The notes beneath the pieces were generated by a model that was not told the origin of the DNA, ran no database searches, and saw only the letters and a program-made list of their open reading frames with translations. Of a DNA stretch of 64,000 nucleotides, positions 5,189 through 50,155 are shown piece by piece. Positions within the stretch are counted from its first letter, which is position 1; each line of letters starts with the position of its first letter. The DNA lies in the NCBI GenBank assembly GCA_964538455.1, contig CAZIDZ010000003.1:46843-110842 (forward strand), read 5' to 3'. The translations under genes and the position numbers were made by a program. The stretch comes from an uncultured bacterium (GTDB taxonomy: Bacteria > Electryoneota > Electryoneia > Electryoneales > Electryoneaceae).

Positions 5189-6544
5189 TCACGTAAGATG
5201 TTTTTCGACCTCATGGAGGACACCTTCGACCTCCGCCCGGTACGCTTCCATCCGCTCCTCGGTGTCCGCTTCAAAGCGCATCACGAGCACCGGTTGTGTG
5301 TTGCTCGCGCGCAGCAGGCCCCAGCCGTGTTCGAAATTGACCCGTACGCCGTCGATATCTACGACGTCGTATTTTCCCTTGAAGTGCTCGGCGACTTCCG
5401 CCACGATTTTGAATTTCAGGTTGTCGTCGGAATCCACTCGCATTTCGGGCGTCGACGGGTAGAGGGGAAGGTCGGCGAGTAATCCGGAGAGCGGTTTGTC
5501 CTCGGCGGCGAGAATTTCAGCGAGTCGGAGCGAGGCGTAGATCGCGTCGTCATAGCCGAAGTAGCGGTCGTTGAAAAACATGTGCCCGCTCATCTCCCCG
5601 GCGAGCTTGGCGTTTTCTTCGCGCAGTTTCGCTTTCAGAAACGAGTGTCCCGTTTTCCACATCAGTGGTTTTCCACCGTGCTTCGCGATGTCGTCGTACA
5701 GCGCCTTCGAACATTTCACCTCGCCGATGATCGTTGCGCCGGGGTACTGCTTGAGCACTCCGCGGGCGTAGAGCGCGAGCAGCCGGTCCCCCCACAGAAC
5801 GCTGCCCTTGTCATCGATCACCCCGATGCGGTCGGCGTCCCCGTCGTATGCGATCCCGCATTCAAGCTTTTCCGCGAGCACGGCTTTTTTCACATCCTCA
5901 AGATTCTTCAAAACTGTCGGGTCGGGATGGTGATTCGGGAAGGTCCCGTCCACCTCGCTGAACAGCTCCAGGGGTTCGCAGCCCAGCAACCGAAAAAGTT
6001 GCGGCGCCGCAAGACCGGCGACCCCGTTTCCGCTGTCGAGTGCGACCCGGACAGGGCGTTTCAGCGTGATGTCCTTCGTGATCGTCTCGAGATAGGCAGG
6101 CAACACGTCCGCCGTTTCATAGCCGCCATCGCCGGATCGAAAGTCTTTTTTCTGGATGCGGCGGTACAGATCCTGGATCATCTCTCCGAACACGGTTGTT
6201 TTGCCCATCGTCATCTTGAAGCCGTTGAACTCGGGGGGATTGTGGCTCCCGGTGATCTGTACGGCGCCATCCGGGTTCAGGTGGTAGATGGCGAAATAGA
6301 GCACCGGCGTCGGAACCATCCCGATGTCGACAACGGTCACTCCTGCCGCCCGCACGCCTTTGGAAAAGGCATCCCGCAGCCCGGGGCCGCTGATCCGTCC
6401 GTCGCGGCCGAGCACGAGACGGCGGCCCCCTTCGTCTCGAACCCACGATCCGAACGCCCTTCCCAATATCTCCACAACGTCAGGGGTCAACTCTGTTTCG
6501 ACAATGCCGCGAATGTCGTACTGACGAAAGATGTTCGCGTTCAT
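5189..6544 (-). CDS. phosphomannomutase/phosphoglucomutase
   Basis: N-terminus 'MNANIFRQYDIRGIV', phosphoserine loop 'TGSHNPPEFNGFK' and Mg site 'DGDADR'. Start set at ATG 6544; the 106 upstream codons of the ORF are Arg-rich junk. Confidence 0.9.
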   Translation of the reverse strand: MNANIFRQYDIRGIVETELTPDVVEILGRAFGSWVRDEGGRRLVLGRDGRISGPGLRDAFSKGVRAAGVTVVDIGMVPTPVLYFAIYHLNPDGAVQITGSHNPPEFNGFKMTMGKTTVFGEMIQDLYRRIQKKDFRSGDGGYETADVLPAYLETITKDITLKRPVRVALDSGNGVAGLAAPQLFRLLGCEPLELFSEVDGTFPNHHPDPTVLKNLEDVKKAVLAEKLECGIAYDGDADRIGVIDDKGSVLWGDRLLALYARGVLKQYPGATIIGEVKCSKALYDDIAKHGGKPLMWKTGHSFLKAKLREENAKLAGEMSGHMFFNDRYFGYDDAIYASLRLAEILAAEDKPLSGLLADLPLYPSTPEMRVDSDDNLKFKIVAEVAEHFKGKYDVVDIDGVRVNFEHGWGLLRASNTQPVLVMRFEADTEERMEAYRAEVEGVLHEVEKHLT

Positions 6545-6593
6545 CCGGTCCTCCGTTGCCCCAGCTTGCATGATGGGGCGATTCCGTGTGCCA

Positions 6594-7787
6594 TCACAGC
6601 GAAGAAGGAAACTCGCCCAGGGTTGCGCGGCTGCCGAACGCCGCAACCCTCTCGAGTGTCGAAAAGTACAACTCTTCGTAAAGTTGAACGATGGGTTCGG
6701 GAGAAAAGCGTTCGACGGCCGTCTTGCGCGCCGCGCTCGACATCTGCTTGTGGAGCGCCGCGTCGCCGAGGATTTCCAGCGCCGCCGTTGCCATTCCCTC
6801 GACATCCCCAACCGGGAGCAGCCTGCCCTCGATGCCGTCGGTAACGACTTCCGGGAGACCACCGGCGCGGGCGCCGATCACAGGCACTCCGCAGGCCATC
6901 GCTTCGAGCGCAGCCAGACCGAAACTTTCACCGTCGGACGGAAACAACAGCAAGTCCGCACCCGGCAGAAGCTCCTCGATGGCGTCATTGGAGCCGAGGA
7001 AGTGCACGTCCGCGGAATAGGACGTAGCCTTCAACCGTTTCTCCGCGGCGAGGCGTTCGGGGCCGTCCCCGACCATGACCAGTTTCGCCGGTCCGTGCTC
7101 ACGGATCTTCAGGTAGATCTCAACGACGTCCTGGATGCGTTTCACAGGCCGGAAATTGGACACATGCATCAGTACCGGCGCTTCAGATCCCGCTCGGAGT
7201 CGTTGAGCCGGCTCTAGGCGCTGAGGGGTGTACCGTTCGCTGTCGACGAAGTTGTAGATCACCTGAGACTCGCATTCGCACCCGACAACTTCATTCACGC
7301 GCTGCGCCAGCCACGAACTGACAGCGGTCACTGCATCGCTGATTTCCACGGAAAACCGCGTGATGTTCAGGTAGGAGGGATCGTTCCCGACGATGGTGAT
7401 GTCGGTGCCGTGCAGGGTTGTGATCACCGGAATATCTTCGCGACCTGCGATCCTGCGCCCCATCCAGGCGGACATTGCGTGTGGGAGCGCGTAGTGAACA
7501 TGTAGCACGTCGAGCGAATGGTGATAGATCACTTCGGAGATCTCCGCCGCCAGCGCCAGGGAATAGGGGGGATACTCGAATAGCGGGTACTCCGGAACGC
7601 GGACGTGGTGAAACGAGACATTCTTGCGCAATGTATCCAGCCGTGCGGGTTGTGCGTAGGAGAGCACGTGCACCTCGTGCCCCCGTGCAGCCATCCGGTG
7701 GGCGACTTCCGCGGCAATGATCCCGCTGCCGCCCTGGGTTGGATAGCAGACGATTCCGACCTTGAGCTGTTTCCTCGCCGTACTCAT
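6594..7787 (-). CDS. bshA: N-acetyl-alpha-D-glucosaminyl L-malate synthase BshA (GT4)
   Basis: Motif-level match to B. subtilis BshA as I recall it: 'KVGIVCYPTQGGSGIIAAE', 'HVHYALPHA', 'TTLHGTDIT', 'HVSNFRPVKR', 'MVGDGPE', 'ESFGLAALEAMACGVP'. ATGA overlap with the bshB stop (7784-7787). Confidence 0.93.
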   Translation of the reverse strand: MSTARKQLKVGIVCYPTQGGSGIIAAEVAHRMAARGHEVHVLSYAQPARLDTLRKNVSFHHVRVPEYPLFEYPPYSLALAAEISEVIYHHSLDVLHVHYALPHAMSAWMGRRIAGREDIPVITTLHGTDITIVGNDPSYLNITRFSVEISDAVTAVSSWLAQRVNEVVGCECESQVIYNFVDSERYTPQRLEPAQRLRAGSEAPVLMHVSNFRPVKRIQDVVEIYLKIREHGPAKLVMVGDGPERLAAEKRLKATSYSADVHFLGSNDAIEELLPGADLLLFPSDGESFGLAALEAMACGVPVIGARAGGLPEVVTDGIEGRLLPVGDVEGMATAALEILGDAALHKQMSSAARKTAVERFSPEPIVQLYEELYFSTLERVAAFGSRATLGEFPSSL

Positions 7788-8515
7788 GGGTTGGCCGCTC
7801 CGTTGCTTTCGACAAGAATCTTGATCGGGTCGTCGACGGGGATAGGCGTGCGCGTAACATACGGCTCGCCGCGGCGGACGCCGATCTGGGCTCCATACAA
7901 GGCTCCGCGTCCATCCAGCCATTCCAAGAAAGTCGGATTCGAGAGGTAGGTGTCGGGCTGGCCCTTTTGCGGAGTGTGGAATTGAGTTTTGTACGCTGCG
8001 ACCGCCCGCGAACGCACGTCCCACGTTTCGCTGACGTCGACGATCAGGTTCGCCTCGGGATTCCACCACATCGGATAGAGCAGCATCGCGGACACTTTGT
8101 GCCGCTCGAGATCGGAGGGATATTTACCGGCGTTCGCAAGAAAAACGGCGTTCTCCACCAGCATCGATCCCTGCAAGTGGTCCGGGTGGCGATCCCGGGC
8201 TGTCGGCGCGATGACGAGGCGGGGCTGATGCTTGCGCAGGATTTCCACGACCTTGTGGCGCTGATCGAAATCCGTTCCGTTGAGGAAACCATCGGGGAGA
8301 TCGAGGCGTTCCCGTACGCTCACGCCGAGGATTCCGGCGGCTTCGTCCGCTTCGGCGTCGCGCTGTTCGCGGCTGCCGCGAGTTCCCATTTCGCCGCGGG
8401 TCAGATCCACAAGCCCGACGGAATACCTCAGCTTCACCAGCTTCGCGACCGTACCGCCGCAGAAAATCTCCACGTCGTCCGGGTGAGGTCCGAATGCGAG
8501 AACGTCAAGACTCAT
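7784..8515 (-). CDS. bshB: bacillithiol biosynthesis deacetylase BshB1 (LmbE/PIG-L family)
   Basis: 'VLAFGPHPDDVEIFCGGT', 'LTRGEMGTRG' and 'DRHPDH'. Sits between bshC and bshA with overlapping stop/start codons. Confidence 0.9.
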   Translation of the reverse strand: MSLDVLAFGPHPDDVEIFCGGTVAKLVKLRYSVGLVDLTRGEMGTRGSREQRDAEADEAAGILGVSVRERLDLPDGFLNGTDFDQRHKVVEILRKHQPRLVIAPTARDRHPDHLQGSMLVENAVFLANAGKYPSDLERHKVSAMLLYPMWWNPEANLIVDVSETWDVRSRAVAAYKTQFHTPQKGQPDTYLSNPTFLEWLDGRGALYGAQIGVRRGEPYVTRTPIPVDDPIKILVESNGAANP

Positions 8516-44705: not shown

Positions 44706-45164
44706 TCCCTGTTACGTGTGTTTTCCAGGCTCAGCGATCTCTTCGACTGCAGGCCCGGCCGTTTTTCCCACCAATAGACTGAGGCAACTCTGCTCGCCAA
44801 CGGTGCCGCCGGTCTGTCCGCATCTTTTCATCTTCCGGGGCAGCGCTTTACCGGCATGCACAAAGGACGAATCCATCGCGCCGGCCGGAAATGTGCTGGC
44901 GAAAATAGGTTCCGCCCTCCTCGCAGTCAAGGGTAGGGGAGATGCACCTCCCCGAAGCGAGTGGCGAACGGGAGGGAACGATCCCGTAAACCAAACAATC
45001 ATCGGGGCTCCGGGGGAATGCGAGGGCGGCGCTCGGCAGTTGATGCCGCCTCGTCCGTCTCTGAGAGCAACAGGAGCGGGCAATCCGTCTCAACCGCGCG
45101 TTCATCTAACAGTAAACGGCCAATCATCGATTGGCTGAGTACGTAATTGATAAAGGTGGGGCAC

Positions 45165-45764
45165 ATGGTGCAGGATATTGACACTTTGACTTCATCACAT
45201 TCCGTCGTCAGCGCGGACGCGGTCGTGGAGCTTCTGAGGAGACGCCGCGCCACCCGTGCCATTGATTCCGAACCTCTCCCCGAGGCGGTGATACAGGACC
45301 TCATCGAGGCGATCCGGCTCACACCGTCCTGCGCGAATCGCCAGCCGTGGAGGTTCATTTTCGCGGAAAGCGAAGTGGAAAGAGAACGGATTTCGCAGAC
45401 GTTCACCGGCGGCAATCTGGCCTGGGCGCCGCACGCTGCGCTGATCGTCTGTGGATTCAGCCGTGCCGAGGACGATTGCCGCGATCAGGACGGGAGGGAG
45501 TACCACCAATTCGACCTCGGCATGGCGACGATGAACCTGATGCTCGCCGCGACGAATCATGGGCTCGTGGCGCGTCCGATGGCGGGTTTCAAGCCCGAAC
45601 TGATCCGTGAACTGTACGGCCTCGATCCGGAGGACCAGCCATTTGTCATGGTGTCCATCGGTTGGCCGAGCGACAGCGAGGAGCATGTGCCCGAGAAATA
45701 CAAGGGAAGTGAAAGCAAACCGCGTGTGCGCAAGAGCGCTGACGAGATCGTCCGTAGAATCTGA
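45165..45764 (+). CDS. nitroreductase family protein
   Basis: 'RRATRAIDSEPLPE', 'RLTPSCANRQPWRF'. ATG 45165 is preceded by AAGGTGG; the TTG at 45147 listed in the track is less likely. Confidence 0.85.
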   Translation: MVQDIDTLTSSHSVVSADAVVELLRRRRATRAIDSEPLPEAVIQDLIEAIRLTPSCANRQPWRFIFAESEVERERISQTFTGGNLAWAPHAALIVCGFSRAEDDCRDQDGREYHQFDLGMATMNLMLAATNHGLVARPMAGFKPELIRELYGLDPEDQPFVMVSIGWPSDSEEHVPEKYKGSESKPRVRKSADEIVRRI

Positions 45765-45790
45765 TTCCGTTGCCAATCCGGCGTGTGCCC

Positions 45791-45824
45791 TGTTTGCTTA
45801 GCGAAGCGGGCAAATAGTTTTTTT
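45791..45824 (+). terminator. probable intrinsic terminator after the nitroreductase gene
   Basis: AU-rich stem TGTTTGC...GCAAATA (one G-U pair), inner GCTT/AAGC pairing, followed by TTTTTTT. Confidence 0.5.
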
Positions 45825-45995
45825 CAGTTCGTGCGCAAATAGGTACTGTCCCCAAGAAGATGAGTTTTAGAGGGACTGTCCCTATTTACGTACGTCAGTC
45901 CGATCGTTCGCTCGGTGATTCGGTGTGGCCCGGGACTTCAGTCCCGGATTTCATAGCGCGCAACAAACAATCTGCAAACCGTCCGATTGACTGTT

Positions 45996-46046
45996 GAGCC
46001 AACCGGGCCATCCCCGCTGTTCGAGAGGGAATGGCCCGGTTGGCTC
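45996..46046. repeat. perfect 16-bp inverted repeat (GAGCCAACCGGGCCAT / ATGGCCCGGTTGGCTC) with 19-nt spacer
   Basis: Read directly from the sequence. Lies 49 bp downstream of the minus-strand cytochrome c lipoprotein stop. No flanking U-tract on either strand. Confidence 0.9.
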
Positions 46047-46094
46047 ATGCGGAACGTGAGATGGGATCATGGCGCCCGGTGTTCTCTGCGCCGC

Positions 46095-46526
46095 TCAGTT
46101 GCCGCTGGAGAGGTTCTCCGGCGCCCCGTTGCTGATCCAGTCCTCGATCGCCTGGATGTTGTCGCTGCCGATATTTCCCCCCGGGGGCATTCGTGGAAAA
46201 CCCTGTCCCTTGACGCGACTCAACAGTTCGCTCGCCCCGGGATCGCCCGGCAGCACCACACGATTCCCGTTCGCTGTGACATGGCTGATCACCGAATTAT
46301 AGGACGTAGCGTTGAATCCGCTTTGGGGAGCAGGTCCGCTGTGGCAGGCGCTGCAATAAGCGTTCAGCATCGGCCCGATCGTATGCGTCCAATCGAGCGG
46401 GGAATTCGGATTCACCGAAAAACCGCCATTTGTGGGCCCATTGTTGGAACACCCGGCGATCAGGATGGTGAGCAGCACGATGGTCAGAATCGCGCGTGGA
46501 AGCAGATAACGCAGACTGGGTTCCAT
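46095..46526 (-). CDS. monoheme c-type cytochrome lipoprotein
   Basis: Signal peptide plus lipobox 'LIAGC'. Single 'CSACH' (46341-46355). Downstream 'GFPRMPPGG' could supply a Met axial ligand. Confidence 0.75.
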   Translation of the reverse strand: MEPSLRYLLPRAILTIVLLTILIAGCSNNGPTNGGFSVNPNSPLDWTHTIGPMLNAYCSACHSGPAPQSGFNATSYNSVISHVTANGNRVVLPGDPGASELLSRVKGQGFPRMPPGGNIGSDNIQAIEDWISNGAPENLSSGN

Positions 46527-46726
46527 GAATCGAATCTCCGCAAGTGGCGTTCGTTTTCAAGTTTTTTCTGGAATTTTCCCGGAGTGCCGGGTTCGACTCC
46601 ATGAGTGGCGTTTCAGGTTCGGTTGGAAGGGTTGACCGCTTCTATAGGAATGCCGCGCTGTCCTCGACGAAGACGAAACGTGCGAGACCGCCGTCTCCTG
46701 TTCACCCTTTCCGATAACTGTGTTTT

Positions 46727-47338
46727 TCACTGAGAGGCCATGTTTTTTCGCACCGATGCAGTAAACGCGACAGTTACCTGCTGGACTTCGCCAAGCCGCA
46801 TCGTCAGGAACTGGGGCCGGGGAATGGAATAGTCCGCGAGCCGAACCGGAAATTTCGCCGTGACTTGCAGTCGATCCCCGTCTCGATTCCACAGGGCATC
46901 CACCTGCACAACGATCCTCCGGGTCATCCCGTGTAACGTAAATATCCCCGTCAGAATAAGTTTTGCCGGTTCGCCCGAGGCGAGGGAATCGGGCCCCTGT
47001 TTCACCGCTGTCGGCACAAAAATACTCACCGGGTACAGATCTGTCTGCAGGTGATTCTTCTTCATGTGGTTATCGCGCACTCCCAGCCCCGTTGTCAGGT
47101 CTCTCATCTGCACCGTTAATGTGCCGGTGACACCCGCGCCGAGATTCCCGGGTTCCAGGGAAAATAGGCCACTCAGTTGGTTTGTGGTGCCGTCGAAGGT
47201 TTCAAGCGGCGCAACCGAAACGAAGGTTACCATGCTGCTGTCCGGCGTCACCACGAATGTCGTCGGTTCCGCTTGGAGGCGCAGCGCGGGGAGCAGGAGC
47301 AAGAGGCTTGAAGCTGCAATCAGGGTTTTCCGGTTCAT
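46727..47338 (-). CDS. YceI-like periplasmic protein
   Basis: Signal peptide 'LLLLLPALRLQA'. 'VRDNHMKKNHLQTDLYPVSIF' and 'LTGIFTLHGMTR' match YceI-family blocks. Confidence 0.85.
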   Translation of the reverse strand: MNRKTLIAASSLLLLLPALRLQAEPTTFVVTPDSSMVTFVSVAPLETFDGTTNQLSGLFSLEPGNLGAGVTGTLTVQMRDLTTGLGVRDNHMKKNHLQTDLYPVSIFVPTAVKQGPDSLASGEPAKLILTGIFTLHGMTRRIVVQVDALWNRDGDRLQVTAKFPVRLADYSIPRPQFLTMRLGEVQQVTVAFTASVRKNMASQ

Positions 47339-47356
47339 CAGGGGGGCTCCCGGTTG

Positions 47357-48457
47357 TCAGTACCACAGGTGAATCATCACCTCGGCGGTCAACGTGTTGT
47401 CAAGGGGATTACTGACGTATTCTACGCCGGGTTCCACCGCGAGATAGCCTGTGGGAATCCACGCGAGCGAAGTGCTCGATCTCCACCAGCTGTCGTTCGC
47501 AACGTTCCGGTCCGGGTCGTAGTAACCGATCCGCTCTTTCACGTACCAGCCGCGTTTGACTCTCCAGCTCAAAAGGTTGCTGACCGTGAAAGAGCCCTTT
47601 CCCTGGGCGATCCAGTCTGCTTCTCCGAGGACGCCGAGTCTGCCCGCCTGCACGCCGTAGAACAGTCCGCCGAGACGGGTCAACTGTCCCGAGGTTTGCC
47701 CGAGTTCCTGATAGCGCCAGCTCGCTCCCAGCGTCGAAGACAGACCGCTGAGCTGGAAACGGGATGCGCCCCGAAGAGTGACCGTCTTGCTGTTGTTGAT
47801 GTCTATCGGGGTGGTCGAAGGACCGTTCGTCAAGGCCCCGGTCATCTCCCAGTGTTCCCCGACGAGACCCCCTTCGATGCCGTCCTCGCGCTGGCTGACG
47901 CCCTGCTCTCCGCCAAACCCGGTGAAACGGCGGGTGAACGCCCGGTGGTCCGCGAAACGCCACCCGAAATCCGGCATGAATCGCCCCACCTTGAAGAACG
48001 GACCGCCCAATCCGGCGTTCAACTGTGCGTACGCTTCAAAGCCGGTGTACAGACCCTTGTCGAAAACGACCGAGACATGGTCGCTGGGGGTGAAGGTGAG
48101 GTAGAGGCTGCCTTGCATCGTCACAAAACTTTGGGAGTCGAGGCTTGGATTTTTTTCCGGGTGGGCGTAGTAGAACAGGTCGCGAAAGTCGAAGCCGAAA
48201 CTGATCTTGTTCCCCAGGGAGGATTGCAGAGAATCGAGCGAGGCGAACGTCAGAGGTTTCGCCGGCAATTCCATATAGCTGAAATATTGGCTGCCGTAAG
48301 GATTTCTTGCGCCGCTCCCTGTCACGCTGTAATGGCACAGCTGGCAGCTTTGTCCGTACGCGACACTGTATTCCGGTAGCGCTTTCAGATTGCCCGCCAG
48401 GGAAAACACCAGGGCGACGCAGTAAGCAGCCGCAAGAACACGCCAGAGCACTCTCAT
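47357..48457 (-). CDS. outer-membrane fused monoheme cytochrome-porin candidate (Cyc2-like architecture)
   Basis: Signal peptide and one 'CQLCH' (48332-48346) near the mature N-terminus. About 320 aa of amphipathic beta-strand pattern follows, ending in 'MIHLWY'. Start placed at ATG 48457. Confidence 0.7.
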   Translation of the reverse strand: MRVLWRVLAAAYCVALVFSLAGNLKALPEYSVAYGQSCQLCHYSVTGSGARNPYGSQYFSYMELPAKPLTFASLDSLQSSLGNKISFGFDFRDLFYYAHPEKNPSLDSQSFVTMQGSLYLTFTPSDHVSVVFDKGLYTGFEAYAQLNAGLGGPFFKVGRFMPDFGWRFADHRAFTRRFTGFGGEQGVSQREDGIEGGLVGEHWEMTGALTNGPSTTPIDINNSKTVTLRGASRFQLSGLSSTLGASWRYQELGQTSGQLTRLGGLFYGVQAGRLGVLGEADWIAQGKGSFTVSNLLSWRVKRGWYVKERIGYYDPDRNVANDSWWRSSTSLAWIPTGYLAVEPGVEYVSNPLDNTLTAEVMIHLWY

Positions 48458-49276
48458 CGCTGGGTTCCTTTCAACGTCCTTGTCACGGTGACAGGCACTC
48501 GAACCCACAAAGGTAAGGTGTTTCAACATCAAACGGTTTTTGCAAACCTGGAAAGTGAGTTGATCGGAGACGATGGCCCGACAGGGAGGCACGCCGTTGC
48601 CCTAGCCAGGTTGCTGCTGCGGAATAAGTCGGACGAACGAGGTAATCGAGGCGACGTAAAGCGGCACCGTGGTGGTAAAAGACATCCCCCGGCCCTGTTG
48701 GGGACCGAGGGACGTTTCAAACCCTGCGAAATCCGAACTTTCCTCACATACGCCGGAGCCGGTTCAACGTATGGCCTTGGAATCTGTCCGAATCCCTACG
48801 GGTTTGACCGAGAATTGGGATTGGTTGGTTGACACTCCATGCGTTAGGGGTACACGGAATGTCACAAATGACAAGGAACCAAACACAACAGATCCATCAG
48901 CATCTTTGCAAGGGATATGCCAGCGTCGTATTATAATCCTTACGCTCGAAATATCAGTTAGATAGTGTGGTTCCTCGTGCTGCATCGCTGGTGAAAACAT
49001 GTAGGAATATGCTACAGCGCGACAGTCCTGTGAGTTTCGATACGAAGCATCGGTTGGCGGGACAGACGTTTCTGTCACGGGCCACGAACTACCACCCTTT
49101 TCTTCGTACTGTTACACTCGACGCTTGAAACCGCCCTATACTAACGATCGGCATCGGTGGTCTGGCCCGTGCAGCTTTGTCCCGGTTCTCGTGGGCGAGG
49201 TGATCCGGCTTTCCGGGCGTTGCGCGGCATACGTGATCTGGGTATACTCCGGCTGTTTCAACCCATTGGGGGAGCG

Positions 49277-50155
49277 ATGATTTTCAGCCTCACCGGCTAT
49301 GGCCGGGCGGAAGTGGAAGACGGGGACCTGCGGCTCAGCGTGGAAATCCGCAGCGTCAACAACCGATTCCTCGAGATCGGCGCGAAATTGCCCCGCAGCC
49401 TGGCCAATCAGGAGATGGAACTGCGGGCGCAGGTGCGAAACCATGTGGACCGCGGAAAGATCAACCTCTTCATCCAGGAGGACCGCTCCACCGTCCGCCA
49501 GGCGAAGCTCAGGTTCGACCAGGACGCCGCCAGGGCCCTCGCGGAGGGATTGCGCGAGCTCGGCGGGAGTGTTGGGGTCAAGGACGACCTCACTCTGGCC
49601 GATCTCGTGCACCTGGTCGAGTGGTTTACCGGGGAAAACGGCGACGAGGATTCCGAACACCGGCTGAAACTGGCGATTCGCGGCATTGACGCGGCCTTCG
49701 ACGAATTCGACAAAATGCGCGCCGAGGAGGGGGAGAACCTGGAAGCCGATTTCCGTCAGCGGCTGGAATCGATCCTGGGTGTGCTCGCGAAGGTGGAAAC
49801 GAAGACCGAGGTCGTTCGCGAAGGGCAGCTCGAAAAACTCCGTGAACGCATCGAACGCTATGTGACGTCGGACCAGGTGGATGAAAGCCGCCTTGAGCAG
49901 GAGGTAGCGTACATCCTGGATCGGCTGGACATCACCGAGGAGATTGTGCGGCTGCGCAGCCATGTCCAGCTTTTCCAGACCGCGCTCGACGACGGCGGAA
50001 GCGTCGGCAAGCGCCTCAACTTCATCCTCCAGGAGATGAACCGTGAGATCAACACGATCGGATCGAAATGCCAGGACGCGGAAACAGCATCCTGGGTCGT
50101 GGAGATGAAGGAAGAGGCGGAAAAGATTCGCGAACAGGTTCAGAATGTCGCCTGA
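49277..50155 (+). CDS. yicC: YicC family stress-induced protein
   Basis: 'MIFSLTGYGRAE', 'IRSVNNRFLEI' and 'QEMNREINTIGSK'. GGGGGAG lies upstream of the ATG. Confidence 0.9.
   Translation: MIFSLTGYGRAEVEDGDLRLSVEIRSVNNRFLEIGAKLPRSLANQEMELRAQVRNHVDRGKINLFIQEDRSTVRQAKLRFDQDAARALAEGLRELGGSVGVKDDLTLADLVHLVEWFTGENGDEDSEHRLKLAIRGIDAAFDEFDKMRAEEGENLEADFRQRLESILGVLAKVETKTEVVREGQLEKLRERIERYVTSDQVDESRLEQEVAYILDRLDITEEIVRLRSHVQLFQTALDDGGSVGKRLNFILQEMNREINTIGSKCQDAETASWVVEMKEEAEKIREQVQNVA

What the first reader, a model, noticed from the sequence alone, without database searches (positions are those of the whole stretch)
46095..48457. Candidate outer-membrane electron conduit: Cyc2-like fused cytochrome-porin + YceI + monoheme cytochrome c lipoprotein
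Seen in the sequence: three co-directional minus-strand genes.
(i) 47357-48457 encodes 366 aa. It has a signal peptide (MRVLWRVLAAAYCVALVFSLAGNLKA) and a single heme-c motif CQLCH (48332-48346) about a dozen residues into the mature chain. About 320 aa of alternating-polarity, G/Y/W/F-rich strands follow, ending in ...AEVMIHLWY. An aromatic C-terminus is typical of OM beta-barrels.
(ii) 46727-47338 encodes a secreted YceI-like protein.
(iii) 46095-46526 encodes a lipoprotein (LIAGC) with one CSACH (46341-46355).
Established knowledge: a signal peptide, one N-terminal CXXCH and a porin barrel together define Cyc2. Cyc2 is the fused cytochrome-porin Fe(II) oxidase of Acidithiobacillus, Zetaproteobacteria, Gallionellaceae and Chlorobium ferrooxidans.
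Inference: this is a compact Cyc2-like extracellular electron-transfer or iron-oxidation module with its own periplasmic monoheme partner. A YceI (polyisoprenoid/quinone-binding fold) gene wedged between the two cytochromes is not part of Cyc2 loci as I know them, so it could represent an undescribed variant.
Caveats: 366 aa is shorter than the Cyc2 proteins I remember (roughly 400-500 aa). Homology cannot be tested here.
Basis: partly seen in the sequence, partly recalled or inferred. Interest (0 to 1): 0.7.

Follow-up and report, generated by a model that had tools for sequence, protein, structure and literature searches.

The report
Cyc2-like cytochrome-porin, YceI, cytochrome operon
Three adjacent genes encode an outer-membrane pore with a built-in heme, a lipid-binding YceI protein and a small lipid-anchored cytochrome; together they look like an electron gateway through the outer membrane, from a large uncharacterised family distantly related to the bacterial iron-oxidising protein Cyc2.

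Summary
Gene 47357-48457(-) encodes a signal peptide, a heme domain with one invariant CxxCH, and a confidently predicted 16-strand porin barrel (pLDDT 93). This is the Cyc2 architecture.

It is not Cyc2 by the published definition. The PxFAR[QK][TY] and PxL motifs are absent. Only the roughly 45-residue heme domain is detectably homologous (hhalign 97.9%, E=3e-13). The barrels show no sequence relationship.

The protein belongs to a large family with no Pfam or NCBIfam model. A profile search found 2,881 50%-identity clusters, spread across FCB-group phyla, Proteobacteria, Myxococcota and others. The family signature is A-x-P-R-[FY]-A-x-R-Y-G-Q-x-CxLCH-V-N-P-T-G-G-G-M-R.

The recurrent partner across the family is a lipoprotein monoheme cytochrome of the PSCyt1 type, present in 34 of 67 loci. 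Its closest solved relative is the Fe(II) oxidase FoxE. The window's third gene is one of these.

YceI is specific to the window's clade, where it keeps its position in unrelated flanking contexts. One relative lacks all three genes at the same site, so the module behaves as a cassette.

The most likely function is an outer-membrane electron conduit for a soluble reductant such as Fe(II). The function is inferred, not shown. I rate it a new variant of a known kind.

The parts
47357..48457 (-). Fused monoheme cytochrome-porin, 366 aa, stop codon included. It belongs to a large family with no Pfam or NCBIfam model that is related to Cyc2 through its heme domain.
   Evidence: ORF. No Pfam, NCBIfam or PDB sequence hit. 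Profile search found 2,881 clusters at E<=1e-3 and 438 at E<=1e-30. AF2 pLDDT 93. hhalign against Cyc2 heme domains gave 97.9%, E=3e-13.
48380..48457 (-). Signal peptide, residues 1-26, with the likely cleavage site after LKA.
   Evidence: Read from the sequence. This stretch aligns with the signal peptides of homologues and of Cyc2. AF2 predicts a helix at residues 2-19. No signal-peptide predictor was available.
48206..48379 (-). N-terminal heme domain, residues 27-84. It contains ALPEYSVAYGQS-CQLCH, with the heme motif at 48332-48346.
   Evidence: CxxCH is invariant in 135 of 135 members. It sits in the same register as the Cyc2 AxPxFARQ[TY]GQxCxxCH motif. AF2 predicts short helices at 28-34, 53-63 and 72-76 with high confidence.
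47360..48205 (-). 16-strand beta-barrel, residues 85-366. It carries a conserved L3-like segment at residues 158-176 (GRFMPDFGWRFADHRAFTR) and the C-terminal beta-signal HLWY.
   Evidence: AF2 strand list. Foldseek matches OprP 2O4V at TMq 0.64 and OprO 4RJW at 0.62, plus VhChiP, Omp32 and PorB. Conserved barrel residues include M114 (90%), H171 (89%), H363 (95%), R92, G158 and G165.
46727..47338 (-). Secreted YceI-family lipocalin, 203 aa. It has a signal peptide ending LQA|EP and no lipobox.
   Evidence: Pfam PF04264, E=4.5e-16. PDB 1Y0G E. coli YceI, E=8.6e-5. YceI lies directly downstream of the porin gene in relatives with different flanks.
46095..46526 (-). Monoheme c-type cytochrome lipoprotein, 143 aa. 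Lipobox LIAGC with Cys26, CSACH at 46341-46355, PSCyt1/FoxE-like heme domain.
   Evidence: Pfam PF07635, 30.6 bits. The best solved relative is FoxE 5MAB, E=1e-6, heme domain 2. The same domain type lies next to 34 of 67 family members. Partners mostly have a lipoprotein-type Cys.

Best explanation
The three genes form one functional cassette encoding a redox module at the outer membrane.

Gene 1 is an outer-membrane 16-strand porin. Its own N-terminal segment carries one covalently bound c-type heme, attached at Cys38 and Cys41 with His42 as the proximal ligand. I infer that this small domain tucks into the barrel. There it would be held by the conserved L3-like loop and lumen residues, and M114, H171 or H363 are candidates for the distal ligand.

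Gene 3 is a monoheme, FoxE-like (PSCyt1) lipoprotein cytochrome. I infer that it is anchored at the periplasmic face of the outer membrane and exchanges electrons with the porin heme.

The most likely direction is inward. A small soluble reductant, with Fe(II) the leading candidate, would be oxidised at the porin heme. Electrons would then pass to the lipoprotein cytochrome and on to the respiratory chain. This is the model proposed for Cyc2.

Gene 2 is a periplasmic YceI lipocalin and an accessory specific to this clade. I infer that it carries an isoprenoid quinone. It could link the cytochromes to the quinone pool, or it could quench lipid radicals generated by Fe/O2 chemistry at the membrane.

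Shown here: the gene content, the domain identities, the fold, the conservation and the linkage. Inferred: heme position, protein-protein contacts, substrate, electron direction and the role of YceI.
For: Architecture:
- Signal peptide, invariant CxxCH 12 residues into the mature chain, and a 16-strand barrel.
- Foldseek finds the same OprP/OprO templates that Keffer et al. report for Cyc2.

Homology of the heme domain to Cyc2-motif proteins:
- The family HMM hits 6 of 6 Cyc2-motif proteins at 19-34 bits, against <=6.4 bits for 1,206 controls.
- hhalign gives 96.7% and 97.9%.
- The window protein scores 18.3 bits against a 126-sequence Cyc2 heme-domain profile. That exceeds all 675 controls in which CxxCH was kept fixed and the flanks shuffled (maximum 17.2).

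Barrel conservation: many charged residues, His and Met in the barrel and the L3-like loop are conserved, which is unusual for a diffusion porin.

Cytochrome partner:
- PSCyt1-type cytochromes lie co-directionally within 2.5 kb of 34 of 67 family members. They often overlap the porin gene by 4 nt.
- Most are lipoproteins.
- The window's copy resembles FoxE, a proposed Fe(II) oxidase.

Cassette behaviour:
- The porin-YceI(-cytochrome) order persists in unrelated flanks (L007, L009, L044, L063, L090, L107).
- Relative L137 has nitroreductase and yicC adjacent with all three genes missing.

YceI biology: YceI lipocalins bind ubiquinone-8 or octaprenyl lipids and work with a cytochrome partner (PMC9113575).
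Against: - There is no experimental datum for any member of this family.
- The Cyc2-defining motifs are not met, and the barrels show no sequence homology to Cyc2 barrels. Function cannot therefore be transferred from Cyc2 with confidence.
- Carriers include many ordinary heterotrophs, such as Roseateles, Aliiglaciecola, Cellvibrio, Steroidobacteraceae and Ignavibacteria. None is a classical iron oxidiser.
- The window holds no other cytochromes, oxidases or iron genes, and the flanks are housekeeping genes.
- The 200-nt gap before gene 3 leaves co-transcription unproven, and no promoter or terminator call was decisive.
- YceI is absent from most family loci, so it is not essential to the core mechanism.
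Confidence: 0.5

Rival explanations
1. The module protects the envelope against oxidative damage and does not conserve energy. In the BcnA(YceI)-LcoA(cytochrome b561) system, the YceI lipocalin holds a quinol or traps lipid peroxyl radicals from the outer membrane. Here the two c-type cytochromes would play the role of the redox partner that regenerates it. The heme-porin would do this at the outer membrane itself.
For: - YceI lipocalins are genetically linked to, and even fused with, a cytochrome. They protect against membrane lipid peroxidation and bind Ubi-8 (PMC9113575).
- In the window's clade, YceI sits tightly between the two cytochromes, with an 18-nt gap. Some loci have it duplicated (L004, L005).
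- Carriers are mostly heterotrophs, not lithotrophic iron oxidisers.
Against: - YceI accompanies only about 10 of 67 family members, whereas the cytochrome pair is the conserved core.
- The known system uses an inner-membrane b561 cytochrome, not c-type cytochromes. No b561 gene lies in this locus.
- Nothing known requires a porin barrel for that function.
Confidence: 0.2
2. The conduit runs outward. Electrons from the quinone pool or periplasm pass through the lipoprotein cytochrome and the porin heme to a soluble extracellular acceptor, such as chelated Fe(III), humics, flavins or oxygen species.
For: - It uses the same parts as the best explanation, and c-type hemes are reversible carriers.
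- A YceI-bound quinol could be the periplasmic donor.
- Relatives L004 and L005 carry a 406-aa partner with three CxxCH motifs, which suggests longer electron wires.
Against: - A single heme in a 16-strand barrel cannot reach insoluble acceptors.
- The characterised relatives with this architecture, Cyc2 and Cyt572, are oxidases of Fe(II).
- The partner's closest solved relative, FoxE, is also an Fe(II) oxidase.
Confidence: 0.12
3. The barrel is essentially a solute porin, or a heme or metal uptake channel. Its heme would be structural or sensory, and the neighbouring YceI and cytochrome genes would be functionally unrelated.
For: - Foldseek matches are all ordinary diffusion or specific porins.
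- A few family members weakly hit porin Pfam models.
- The flanks are housekeeping genes.
Against: - The invariant CxxCH and conserved heme-domain signature persist across thousands of clusters.
- A c-type cytochrome lies adjacent, often with a 4-nt overlap, in about half of the loci and across phyla.
- All three genes are present or absent together.
Confidence: 0.08

Closest known systems
Cyc2, the fused cytochrome-porin Fe(II) oxidase of Acidithiobacillus ferrooxidans, Mariprofundus ferrooxydans PV-1, Gallionellaceae and Chlorobium ferrooxidans (McAllister 2020, PMC7029218; Keffer 2021, PMC8406198)
   Same: - Both have a signal peptide and a single CxxCH about 12 residues into the mature chain.
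- The upstream register is identical: A-x-P-x-aromatic-x-x-x-[TY]-G-Q-x-C.
- Both have a 16-strand barrel whose best structural templates include OprP and OprO.
- Both have an adjacent c-type cytochrome gene.
- The heme domains are homologous at profile level.
   Different: - The window protein lacks the FAR[QK] core of the defining motif and the downstream F-P-x-L-T, which is replaced by N-P-T-G-G-G-M-R in the family and Y-S-V-T-G-S-G-A-R in the window.
- It is about 80-140 aa shorter than the six Cyc2-motif proteins compared.
- There is no detectable barrel sequence homology.
- The partner cytochrome is a PSCyt1/FoxE-like lipoprotein, not a class-I/c4 cytochrome.
- A YceI gene is inserted in this clade.
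- Carriers are mainly FCB-group and heterotrophic Proteobacteria.
Cyt572 of Leptospirillum, a very divergent Cyc2 homologue
   Same: It is a cytochrome-porin fusion accepted as a Cyc2 relative at only about 11-19% identity. This shows how loosely the kind is bounded.
   Different: It carries an unusual heme and comes from an acidophile.
FoxE, the diheme Fe(II) oxidoreductase of Rhodobacter ferrooxidans SW2 (PDB 5MAB)
   Same: The gene-3 cytochrome aligns to FoxE heme domain 2 (E=1e-6). The alignment includes CxxCH and the PGDPxxS...MP...I..W segment.
   Different: - The gene-3 cytochrome has one heme, not two.
- It is a lipoprotein.
- No foxY or foxZ genes are present.
- It is linked to a heme-porin, which FoxE is not.
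BcnA/YceI lipocalin with LcoA cytochrome b561 (PMC9113575)
   Same: A periplasmic YceI-family lipocalin is genetically coupled to a cytochrome. The lipocalin is known to bind ubiquinone-8 or octaprenyl ligands.
   Different: In the known system the partner is an inner-membrane b-type cytochrome. Here the partners are an outer-membrane c-type heme-porin and a c-type lipoprotein.
Porin-cytochrome complexes (MtrCAB, PioAB/MtoAB)
   Same: Both involve an outer-membrane barrel and a cytochrome, giving trans-outer-membrane electron transfer. A lipoprotein cytochrome partner is also present in Mtr (MtrC).
   Different: Those systems use a separate decaheme cytochrome threaded through a larger barrel. 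Here a single heme is fused to a 16-strand barrel. No homology was tested or expected.

Membership tests
Cyc2 (as defined by Keffer et al. 2021) | N-terminal signal peptide | tested here: met
   Read from the sequence (MRVLWRVLAAAYCVALVFSLAGNLKA). It aligns with the signal peptides of Cyc2-motif proteins in HMM and hhalign alignments. No dedicated predictor was run.
Cyc2 (as defined by Keffer et al. 2021) | Single CxxCH near the N-terminus | tested here: met
   One CQLCH at residues 38-42. The motif is invariant in 135 homologues, and 133 of 135 have exactly one CxxCH.
Cyc2 (as defined by Keffer et al. 2021) | AxPxFAR[Q/K][T/Y] motif upstream of CxxCH, described as 'unique to Cyc2' | tested here: not met
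   The window has ALPEYSVAY. This shares A, P, the aromatic residue, the final Y and the spacing, but not F-A-R-[QK]. None of 135 family members matches P.FAR[QK][TY]. Only 54 of 120 close Cyc2 relatives match the strict regex either.
Cyc2 (as defined by Keffer et al. 2021) | PxL motif 4 residues downstream of CxxCH | tested here: not met
   The window has CQLCH-YSVTGSGAR. The family consensus is CxLCH-VNPTGGGMR, with P at +3 followed by GGG and no L.
Cyc2 (as defined by Keffer et al. 2021) | 16-stranded porin barrel fused C-terminally | tested here: met
   AF2 gives pLDDT 93.0 and 16 strands. Foldseek matches 16-strand porins, including OprP 2O4V and OprO 4RJW, the templates reported for Cyc2.
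Cyc2 (as defined by Keffer et al. 2021) | Length of at least 365 aa (the FeGenie filter); most are at least 400 aa | tested here: met
   366 aa, which is just above the filter. The family median is 379 aa.
Cyc2 (as defined by Keffer et al. 2021) | Sequence homology to accepted Cyc2 proteins | tested here: inconclusive
   Homology in the heme domain is significant. hhalign gives 96.7-97.9%, and the window protein scores 18.3 bits, p about 8e-8. The barrel-only comparison gives probability 0.4%. Only Cyc2-motif proteins from plasmids and metagenome fragments were available. No Cluster 1 iron-oxidiser sequences were compared.
Cyc2 (as defined by Keffer et al. 2021) | Hit above cut-off to the FeGenie Cyc2 cluster 1-3 HMMs | not testable with these tools
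   The HMMs are not available here. One published survey reports 'Cyc2 homologs' in 17 bacterial phyla, among them Calditrichota, Eisenbacteria, KSB1 and Bacteroidota (PMC9769843). Such surveys may already capture this family.
Cyc2 (as defined by Keffer et al. 2021) | Fe(II) oxidase activity | not testable with these tools
   This needs biochemistry.
YceI-like lipocalin (Pfam PF04264) | Profile match above the gathering score | tested here: met
   60 bits against a cut-off of 23.7. PDB 1Y0G E. coli YceI, E=8.6e-5.
YceI-like lipocalin (Pfam PF04264) | Bound polyisoprenoid or quinone ligand | not testable with these tools
   Known for solved YceI proteins (PMC9113575). Not assessable from sequence.
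PSCyt1 cytochrome c domain (Pfam PF07635), the FoxE-type heme domain | Profile match above the gathering score, with CxxCH | tested here: met
   30.6 bits against a cut-off of 22. CSACH is present. FoxE 5MAB, E=1e-6.
FoxE (foxEYZ Fe(II) oxidase) | Diheme protein encoded with foxY and foxZ | tested here: not met
   There is one heme motif only and no foxY or foxZ-like neighbours. The similarity is at the domain level only.

The most novel reading that the evidence does not exclude
This would be the founding example of an unrecognised, very widespread sister family of Cyc2. It comprises thousands of sequence clusters in FCB-group phyla, Proteobacteria, Myxococcota and Bdellovibrionia. Its core would be a heme-porin plus a FoxE-like lipoprotein cytochrome. 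In one FCB clade it has recruited a YceI lipocalin, so that a protein-bound isoprenoid quinone shuttles electrons across the periplasm between outer-membrane hemes and the inner membrane. That would be a lipid-carrier route for trans-periplasmic electron transfer, which has not been described. It would also mean that many 'Cyc2' calls in heterotrophic phyla refer to a different machine.
Probability: 0.2. Interest if true: 0.8.

Novelty: new variant of a known kind. Interest (0 to 1): 0.55.

Why it matters
Cyc2 is the main genetic marker used to infer microbial iron oxidation from genomes and metagenomes. Surveys already report 'Cyc2 homologs' in many heterotrophic FCB-group phyla and read them as potential iron oxidisers (PMC9769843).

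This locus shows that at least some cytochrome-porins in such lineages belong to a separate family. That family has its own heme-domain signature, its own barrel, and a different conserved partner, a FoxE-like lipoprotein cytochrome. One clade adds a YceI lipocalin.

If the family oxidises Fe(II), the known range of iron oxidisers widens and gains a better-defined marker. If it does something else, such as envelope redox protection or quinone-linked electron exchange, marker-based inferences need revising.

Cultured carriers exist, including Roseateles agri, Aliiglaciecola sp. M165 and Melioribacter sp. Ez-97. An Ignavibacterium album genome assembled from a metagenome also carries it. The question is therefore directly testable.

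Tried and rejected
- **Curated models.** Pfam, NCBIfam and PDB sequence searches of the porin found nothing. Canonical Cyc2-motif proteins also hit nothing. The absence is therefore uninformative about membership.
- **Word-indexed homology search.** It suggested a tiny family of 10 proteins. The exhaustive profile search overturned that with 2,881 clusters.
- **Published Cyc2 sequences.** The supplements of the Cyc2 papers held none.
- **tblastn of the window protein against plasmids.** It gave only a chance hit. A consensus probe was needed to fish out Cyc2-motif genes.
- **The search for related loci on reference genomes.** I replaced it with a custom DNA pattern. By design, that pattern does not match the window's own divergent subclade.
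- **Last homology search with Cyc2 heme domains.** It returned mostly fragments. No full-length Cluster 1 Cyc2 could be compared.
- **Conserved upstream RNA as a leader of the operon.** Rejected, because it persists next to yicC in a relative that lacks the module.
- **Promoter and terminator scan.** It was not informative.
- **Barrel-level homology to Cyc2.** Tested and not found.
- **YceI as a family-wide partner.** Tested and rejected, because it is specific to one clade.
- **Heme position.** It could not be checked because model coordinates are not exposed.
Full report
**1. Observation**

- Gene 1, 47357-48457, encodes 366 aa. It has a typical signal peptide, CQLCH at residues 38-42 (48332-48346), and ends in HLWY. 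The frame is open up to a GTG at 48592, but homologues start at the ATG.
- Gene 2, 46727-47338, matches Pfam YceI (E=4.5e-16).
- Gene 3, 46095-46526, has the lipobox LIAGC, one CSACH (46341-46355), and matches Pfam PSCyt1 above its gathering score.
- The gaps are 18 and 200 nt.
- These are the only two CxxCH-containing ORFs in the 64-kb window. The flanks are housekeeping genes: yicC, gmk, rpoZ, coaBC, udg and dnaB on one side, and a nitroreductase and pntAB on the other.

**2. What gene 1 is**

It matches no Pfam, NCBIfam or PDB sequence. The same holds for 117 relatives scanned together.

A word-indexed search found only 10 relatives. An exhaustive profile search found far more: 2,881 50%-identity clusters at E<=1e-3, 1,596 at E<=1e-10 and 438 at E<=1e-30.

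In 135 full-length members the CxxCH is invariant, and 133 have exactly one.

With a 117-sequence alignment, AlphaFold2 gives pLDDT 93.0 and pTM 0.87. The model has a small helical N-terminal domain at residues 27-84, followed by 16 strands at residues 85-365. The 10-sequence model had given the same strand count at lower confidence.

Foldseek against the PDB returns only 16-strand porins. The highest query-normalised TM-scores go to OprP 2O4V (0.64) and OprO 4RJW/4RJX (0.62-0.64). These are the templates Keffer et al. report for Cyc2.

The barrel is unusually conserved for a porin. Conserved positions include R92, G158 and G165 (100%), D90, Y119, E141, R176, E195, M114 (90%), H171 (89%) and H363 (95%). 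The most conserved stretch is the segment between strands 5 and 6, GRFxPxFGWRxxDHxxFxR. This is where classical porins have the lumen-filling loop L3. From this I infer that the heme domain is held inside the barrel. I could not verify that, because model coordinates are not exposed.

**3. Relation to Cyc2**

Keffer et al. (PMC8406198) define Cyc2 by these features:
- a signal peptide;
- one CxxCH;
- an AxPxFAR[Q/K][T/Y] motif upstream, described as unique to Cyc2;
- PxL downstream;
- a 16-strand porin;
- length of at least 365 aa.

No Cyc2 sequences were available in the paper supplements. I therefore fished real ones out of annotated plasmids with a consensus probe. These came from Methylocystis, Caballeronia, Ideonella, Polymorphobacter, a Ralstonia megaplasmid and an A. 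ferrooxidans plasmid. They carry, for example, AVPSFARQTGQPCATCHTAFPELTSYGRRFK. In the five annotated loci a c-type cytochrome gene follows; the Ralstonia stretch has no annotated features. The three I scanned are class-I or c4-type.

Evidence for homology:
- An HMM of the window's family hits all six at 19-34 bits (p from 6e-13 to 2e-8). The 1,206 shuffled or reversed controls scored at most 6.4 bits.
- The match covers the signal peptide and heme motif.
- hhalign gives 96.7% probability over 113 columns.
- With 120 more Cyc2-type heme domains, hhalign rises to 97.9%, E=3e-13.
- The window protein alone scores 18.3 bits (p about 8e-8). That is above all 675 controls in which CxxCH was kept fixed and the flanks shuffled (maximum 17.2, 95th percentile 7.5).
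- The upstream register is identical. ALPEYSVAYGQSC in the window corresponds to AVPSFARQTGQPC in Cyc2.

Evidence against membership:
- None of 135 members meets the strict regex. The family has its own signature, A-x-P-R-[FY]-[AS]-x-R-[YT]-G-Q-x-C-x-L-C-H-V-N-P-[TS]-G-G-G-M-R-x-x-Y-G.
- There is no PxL motif.
- Barrel-only profiles show no relationship, with probability 0.4%.

The strict regex is also missed by 66 of 120 close Cyc2 relatives, so it is a leaky criterion.

My conclusion is that the architecture is the same and the heme domain is homologous, but this is a separate family. Whether the fusion arose once or twice cannot be decided here.

**4. Distribution and organism**

Of these, 118 contain a family ORF.

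Hosts span Eisenbacteria, Krumholzibacteriia, Latescibacterota, Poribacteria, Ignavibacteria and Melioribacter, Calditrichia, Marinimicrobia, Acidobacteriota, Myxococcota, Bdellovibrionia and many Proteobacteria. Cultured strains among them are Roseateles agri, Aliiglaciecola sp. M165 and Melioribacter sp. Ez-97.

The window's own lineage is an uncultured FCB-superphylum bacterium. Its DnaB is 86% identical to an unclassified 'bacterium', 67% to a Bacteroidota MAG, about 60% to Calditrichaeota and Candidatus Electryonea clarkiae, and about 48% to KSB1.

A published survey already lists 'Cyc2 homologs' in Calditrichota, Eisenbacteria, KSB1, Krumholzibacteriota and Bacteroidota (PMC9769843). Members of this family may already be lumped under Cyc2. 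I could not test that.

**5. The neighbours**

The closest relatives share the whole neighbourhood (L001-L006). In L004 and L005 there are two YceI genes and a 406-aa cytochrome with three PSCyt1 stretches.

More telling are loci whose flanks are unrelated but where YceI still follows the porin gene directly: L009 (with L008), L007, L044, L063, L090 and L107. In several of these a PSCyt1 cytochrome comes next.

Across 67 full-length members:
- 34 have a co-directional PSCyt1-type cytochrome within 2.5 kb. It usually abuts the porin gene or overlaps it by 4 nt.
- In Proteobacteria this partner lies upstream and is about 290 aa. Pfam found Ig-like/CopC-like domains (Big_5 in 8, CopC in 6) and PSCyt1 (7) in the set of upstream ORFs; I infer, without checking individual proteins, that these are domains of the same partner.
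- Many of the remaining loci are cut by locus ends, so 34 of 67 is a lower bound.
- Most partners have a lipoprotein-type cysteine.
- YceI accompanies 10 of 67 members, and all but one of these fall in the window's clade.

The gene-3 cytochrome's best solved relative is FoxE, the proposed Fe(II) oxidase of Rhodobacter ferrooxidans SW2 (5MAB, E=1e-6).

In relative L137, nitroreductase and yicC are adjacent, and porin, YceI and cytochrome are all missing. The three genes therefore come and go as one unit.

**6. Mechanism**

The best-supported reading, at confidence about 0.5, is an outer-membrane electron conduit.
- A soluble reductant would be oxidised at the porin-held heme. Fe(II) is the prime candidate, by analogy with Cyc2, Cyt572 and FoxE.
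- Electrons would pass to the lipoprotein cytochrome at the periplasmic face and onward.
- YceI lipocalins bind ubiquinone-8 or octaprenyl lipids and are known to work with a cytochrome, the b561 protein LcoA, against lipid peroxidation (PMC9113575).
- Here YceI may link the hemes to a quinone, or protect the membrane from Fe/O2 radical chemistry.

The rival readings are a purely protective redox system (0.2), outward electron export to soluble acceptors (0.12), and an ordinary porin with unrelated neighbours (0.08).

Everything about substrate, direction, contacts and the role of YceI is inference. The predominance of heterotrophic carriers is a real caution against equating this module with lithotrophic iron oxidation.

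**7. Novelty**

The kind, a fused cytochrome-porin, is known. Three things set this case apart:
- a distinct family signature and barrel;
- a family-wide FoxE-like lipoprotein partner in place of a c4 cytochrome;
- the YceI insertion, which no paper in the searched library mentions together with Cyc2.

I rate it a new variant of a known kind, with interest 0.55.

**8. Side finding**

A block of about 230 nt lies between yicC and the porin gene on the minus strand, at roughly 48675-48925. It is more conserved than the genes around it.

- It begins with an invariant TGGCAY-N5-TTGC, which resembles a sigma-54 -24/-12 promoter.
- Three helical domains follow, then a GC-rich hairpin with a U-run.
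- RNAalifold on four sequences predicts 52 pairs, 15 of them with compensatory changes.
- The single-sequence fold has z = -3.9 against shuffles.
- No Rfam family matches, even at E<=10.
- It stays next to yicC in L137, which lacks the module. It is therefore an independent RNA gene, not a leader of the operon.

Noticed in passing
window ~48675-48925, minus strand (between yicC at 49157 and the porin ATG at 48457): A conserved, structured non-coding element of about 230 nt. It has an invariant TGGCAY-N5-TTGC (a sigma-54-type -24/-12 promoter), three helical domains, and a terminal GC hairpin with a U-run. 15 of 52 predicted pairs covary among 4 sequences, and the single-sequence fold has z=-3.9. 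No Rfam match was found. It persists next to yicC in relative L137, which lacks the porin module, so it is an independent sRNA-like gene.
   Followed up: partly
L137 (Ga0272443_10006616) 6329-8484, compared with window 45147-50155: In this relative the order is nitroreductase, the RNA element, then yicC. Porin, YceI and cytochrome genes are absent from the 11.4-kb locus. The three-gene module is a presence/absence cassette at this site.
   Followed up: yes
L043, L047, L074, L105, L106, L112, L119, L101, L081 (Gammaproteobacteria, Steroidobacteraceae): In the proteobacterial members, an ORF of about 285-310 aa with one CxxCH lies upstream and overlaps the porin start by 4 nt; most start with a lipoprotein-type cysteine. 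Pfam on the whole set of upstream ORFs found Big_5 (8), CopC (6) and PSCyt1 (7); that these are domains of one protein is my inference. This is a different arrangement of the same porin-cytochrome pair.
   Followed up: partly
L036, L051, L064, L065 (Anaerolineales, Chloroflexota): Short proteins of about 195 aa carry the same heme-domain signature. They sit between a 4-10-heme cytochrome upstream and a protein of about 790-815 aa downstream (L051's is cut by the locus end). The heme domain also occurs outside the 16-strand-porin context. Weak hits also appear in two archaeal contigs, L100 and L135.
   Followed up: no
L007 4726-5811(-) and L090 3139-4410(+); one further downstream neighbour in alignment A4: Secreted CHRD-domain proteins lie next to porin-YceI modules of the window's clade, in otherwise unrelated flanks. 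They carry FlgD_ig domains, and the L007 copy also a weak Por_Secre_tail match.
   Followed up: no
L004 7130-9623 and L005 7109-9624: In the 46%-identity relatives the module is expanded. It has two tandem YceI genes and a 406-aa cytochrome with three CxxCH motifs, matched by PSCyt1 in three stretches, in place of the 143-aa monoheme one.
   Followed up: partly
L042 3065-5041 and L121 3-1495 (Melioribacter): A shorter ORF of about 235-257 aa with CxxCH, weakly hit by the family model, lies directly next to a family porin gene; in L121 the porin gene is cut by the locus end.
   Followed up: no
Cyc2-motif loci L010-L013 and L015 (plasmids): Only 54 of 120 close relatives of canonical Cyc2 heme domains satisfy the published strict motif P.FAR[QK][TY]. 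Examples of variants are FAAQT and FNRQT. Motif filtering as used in the literature therefore discards genuine relatives.
   Followed up: partly
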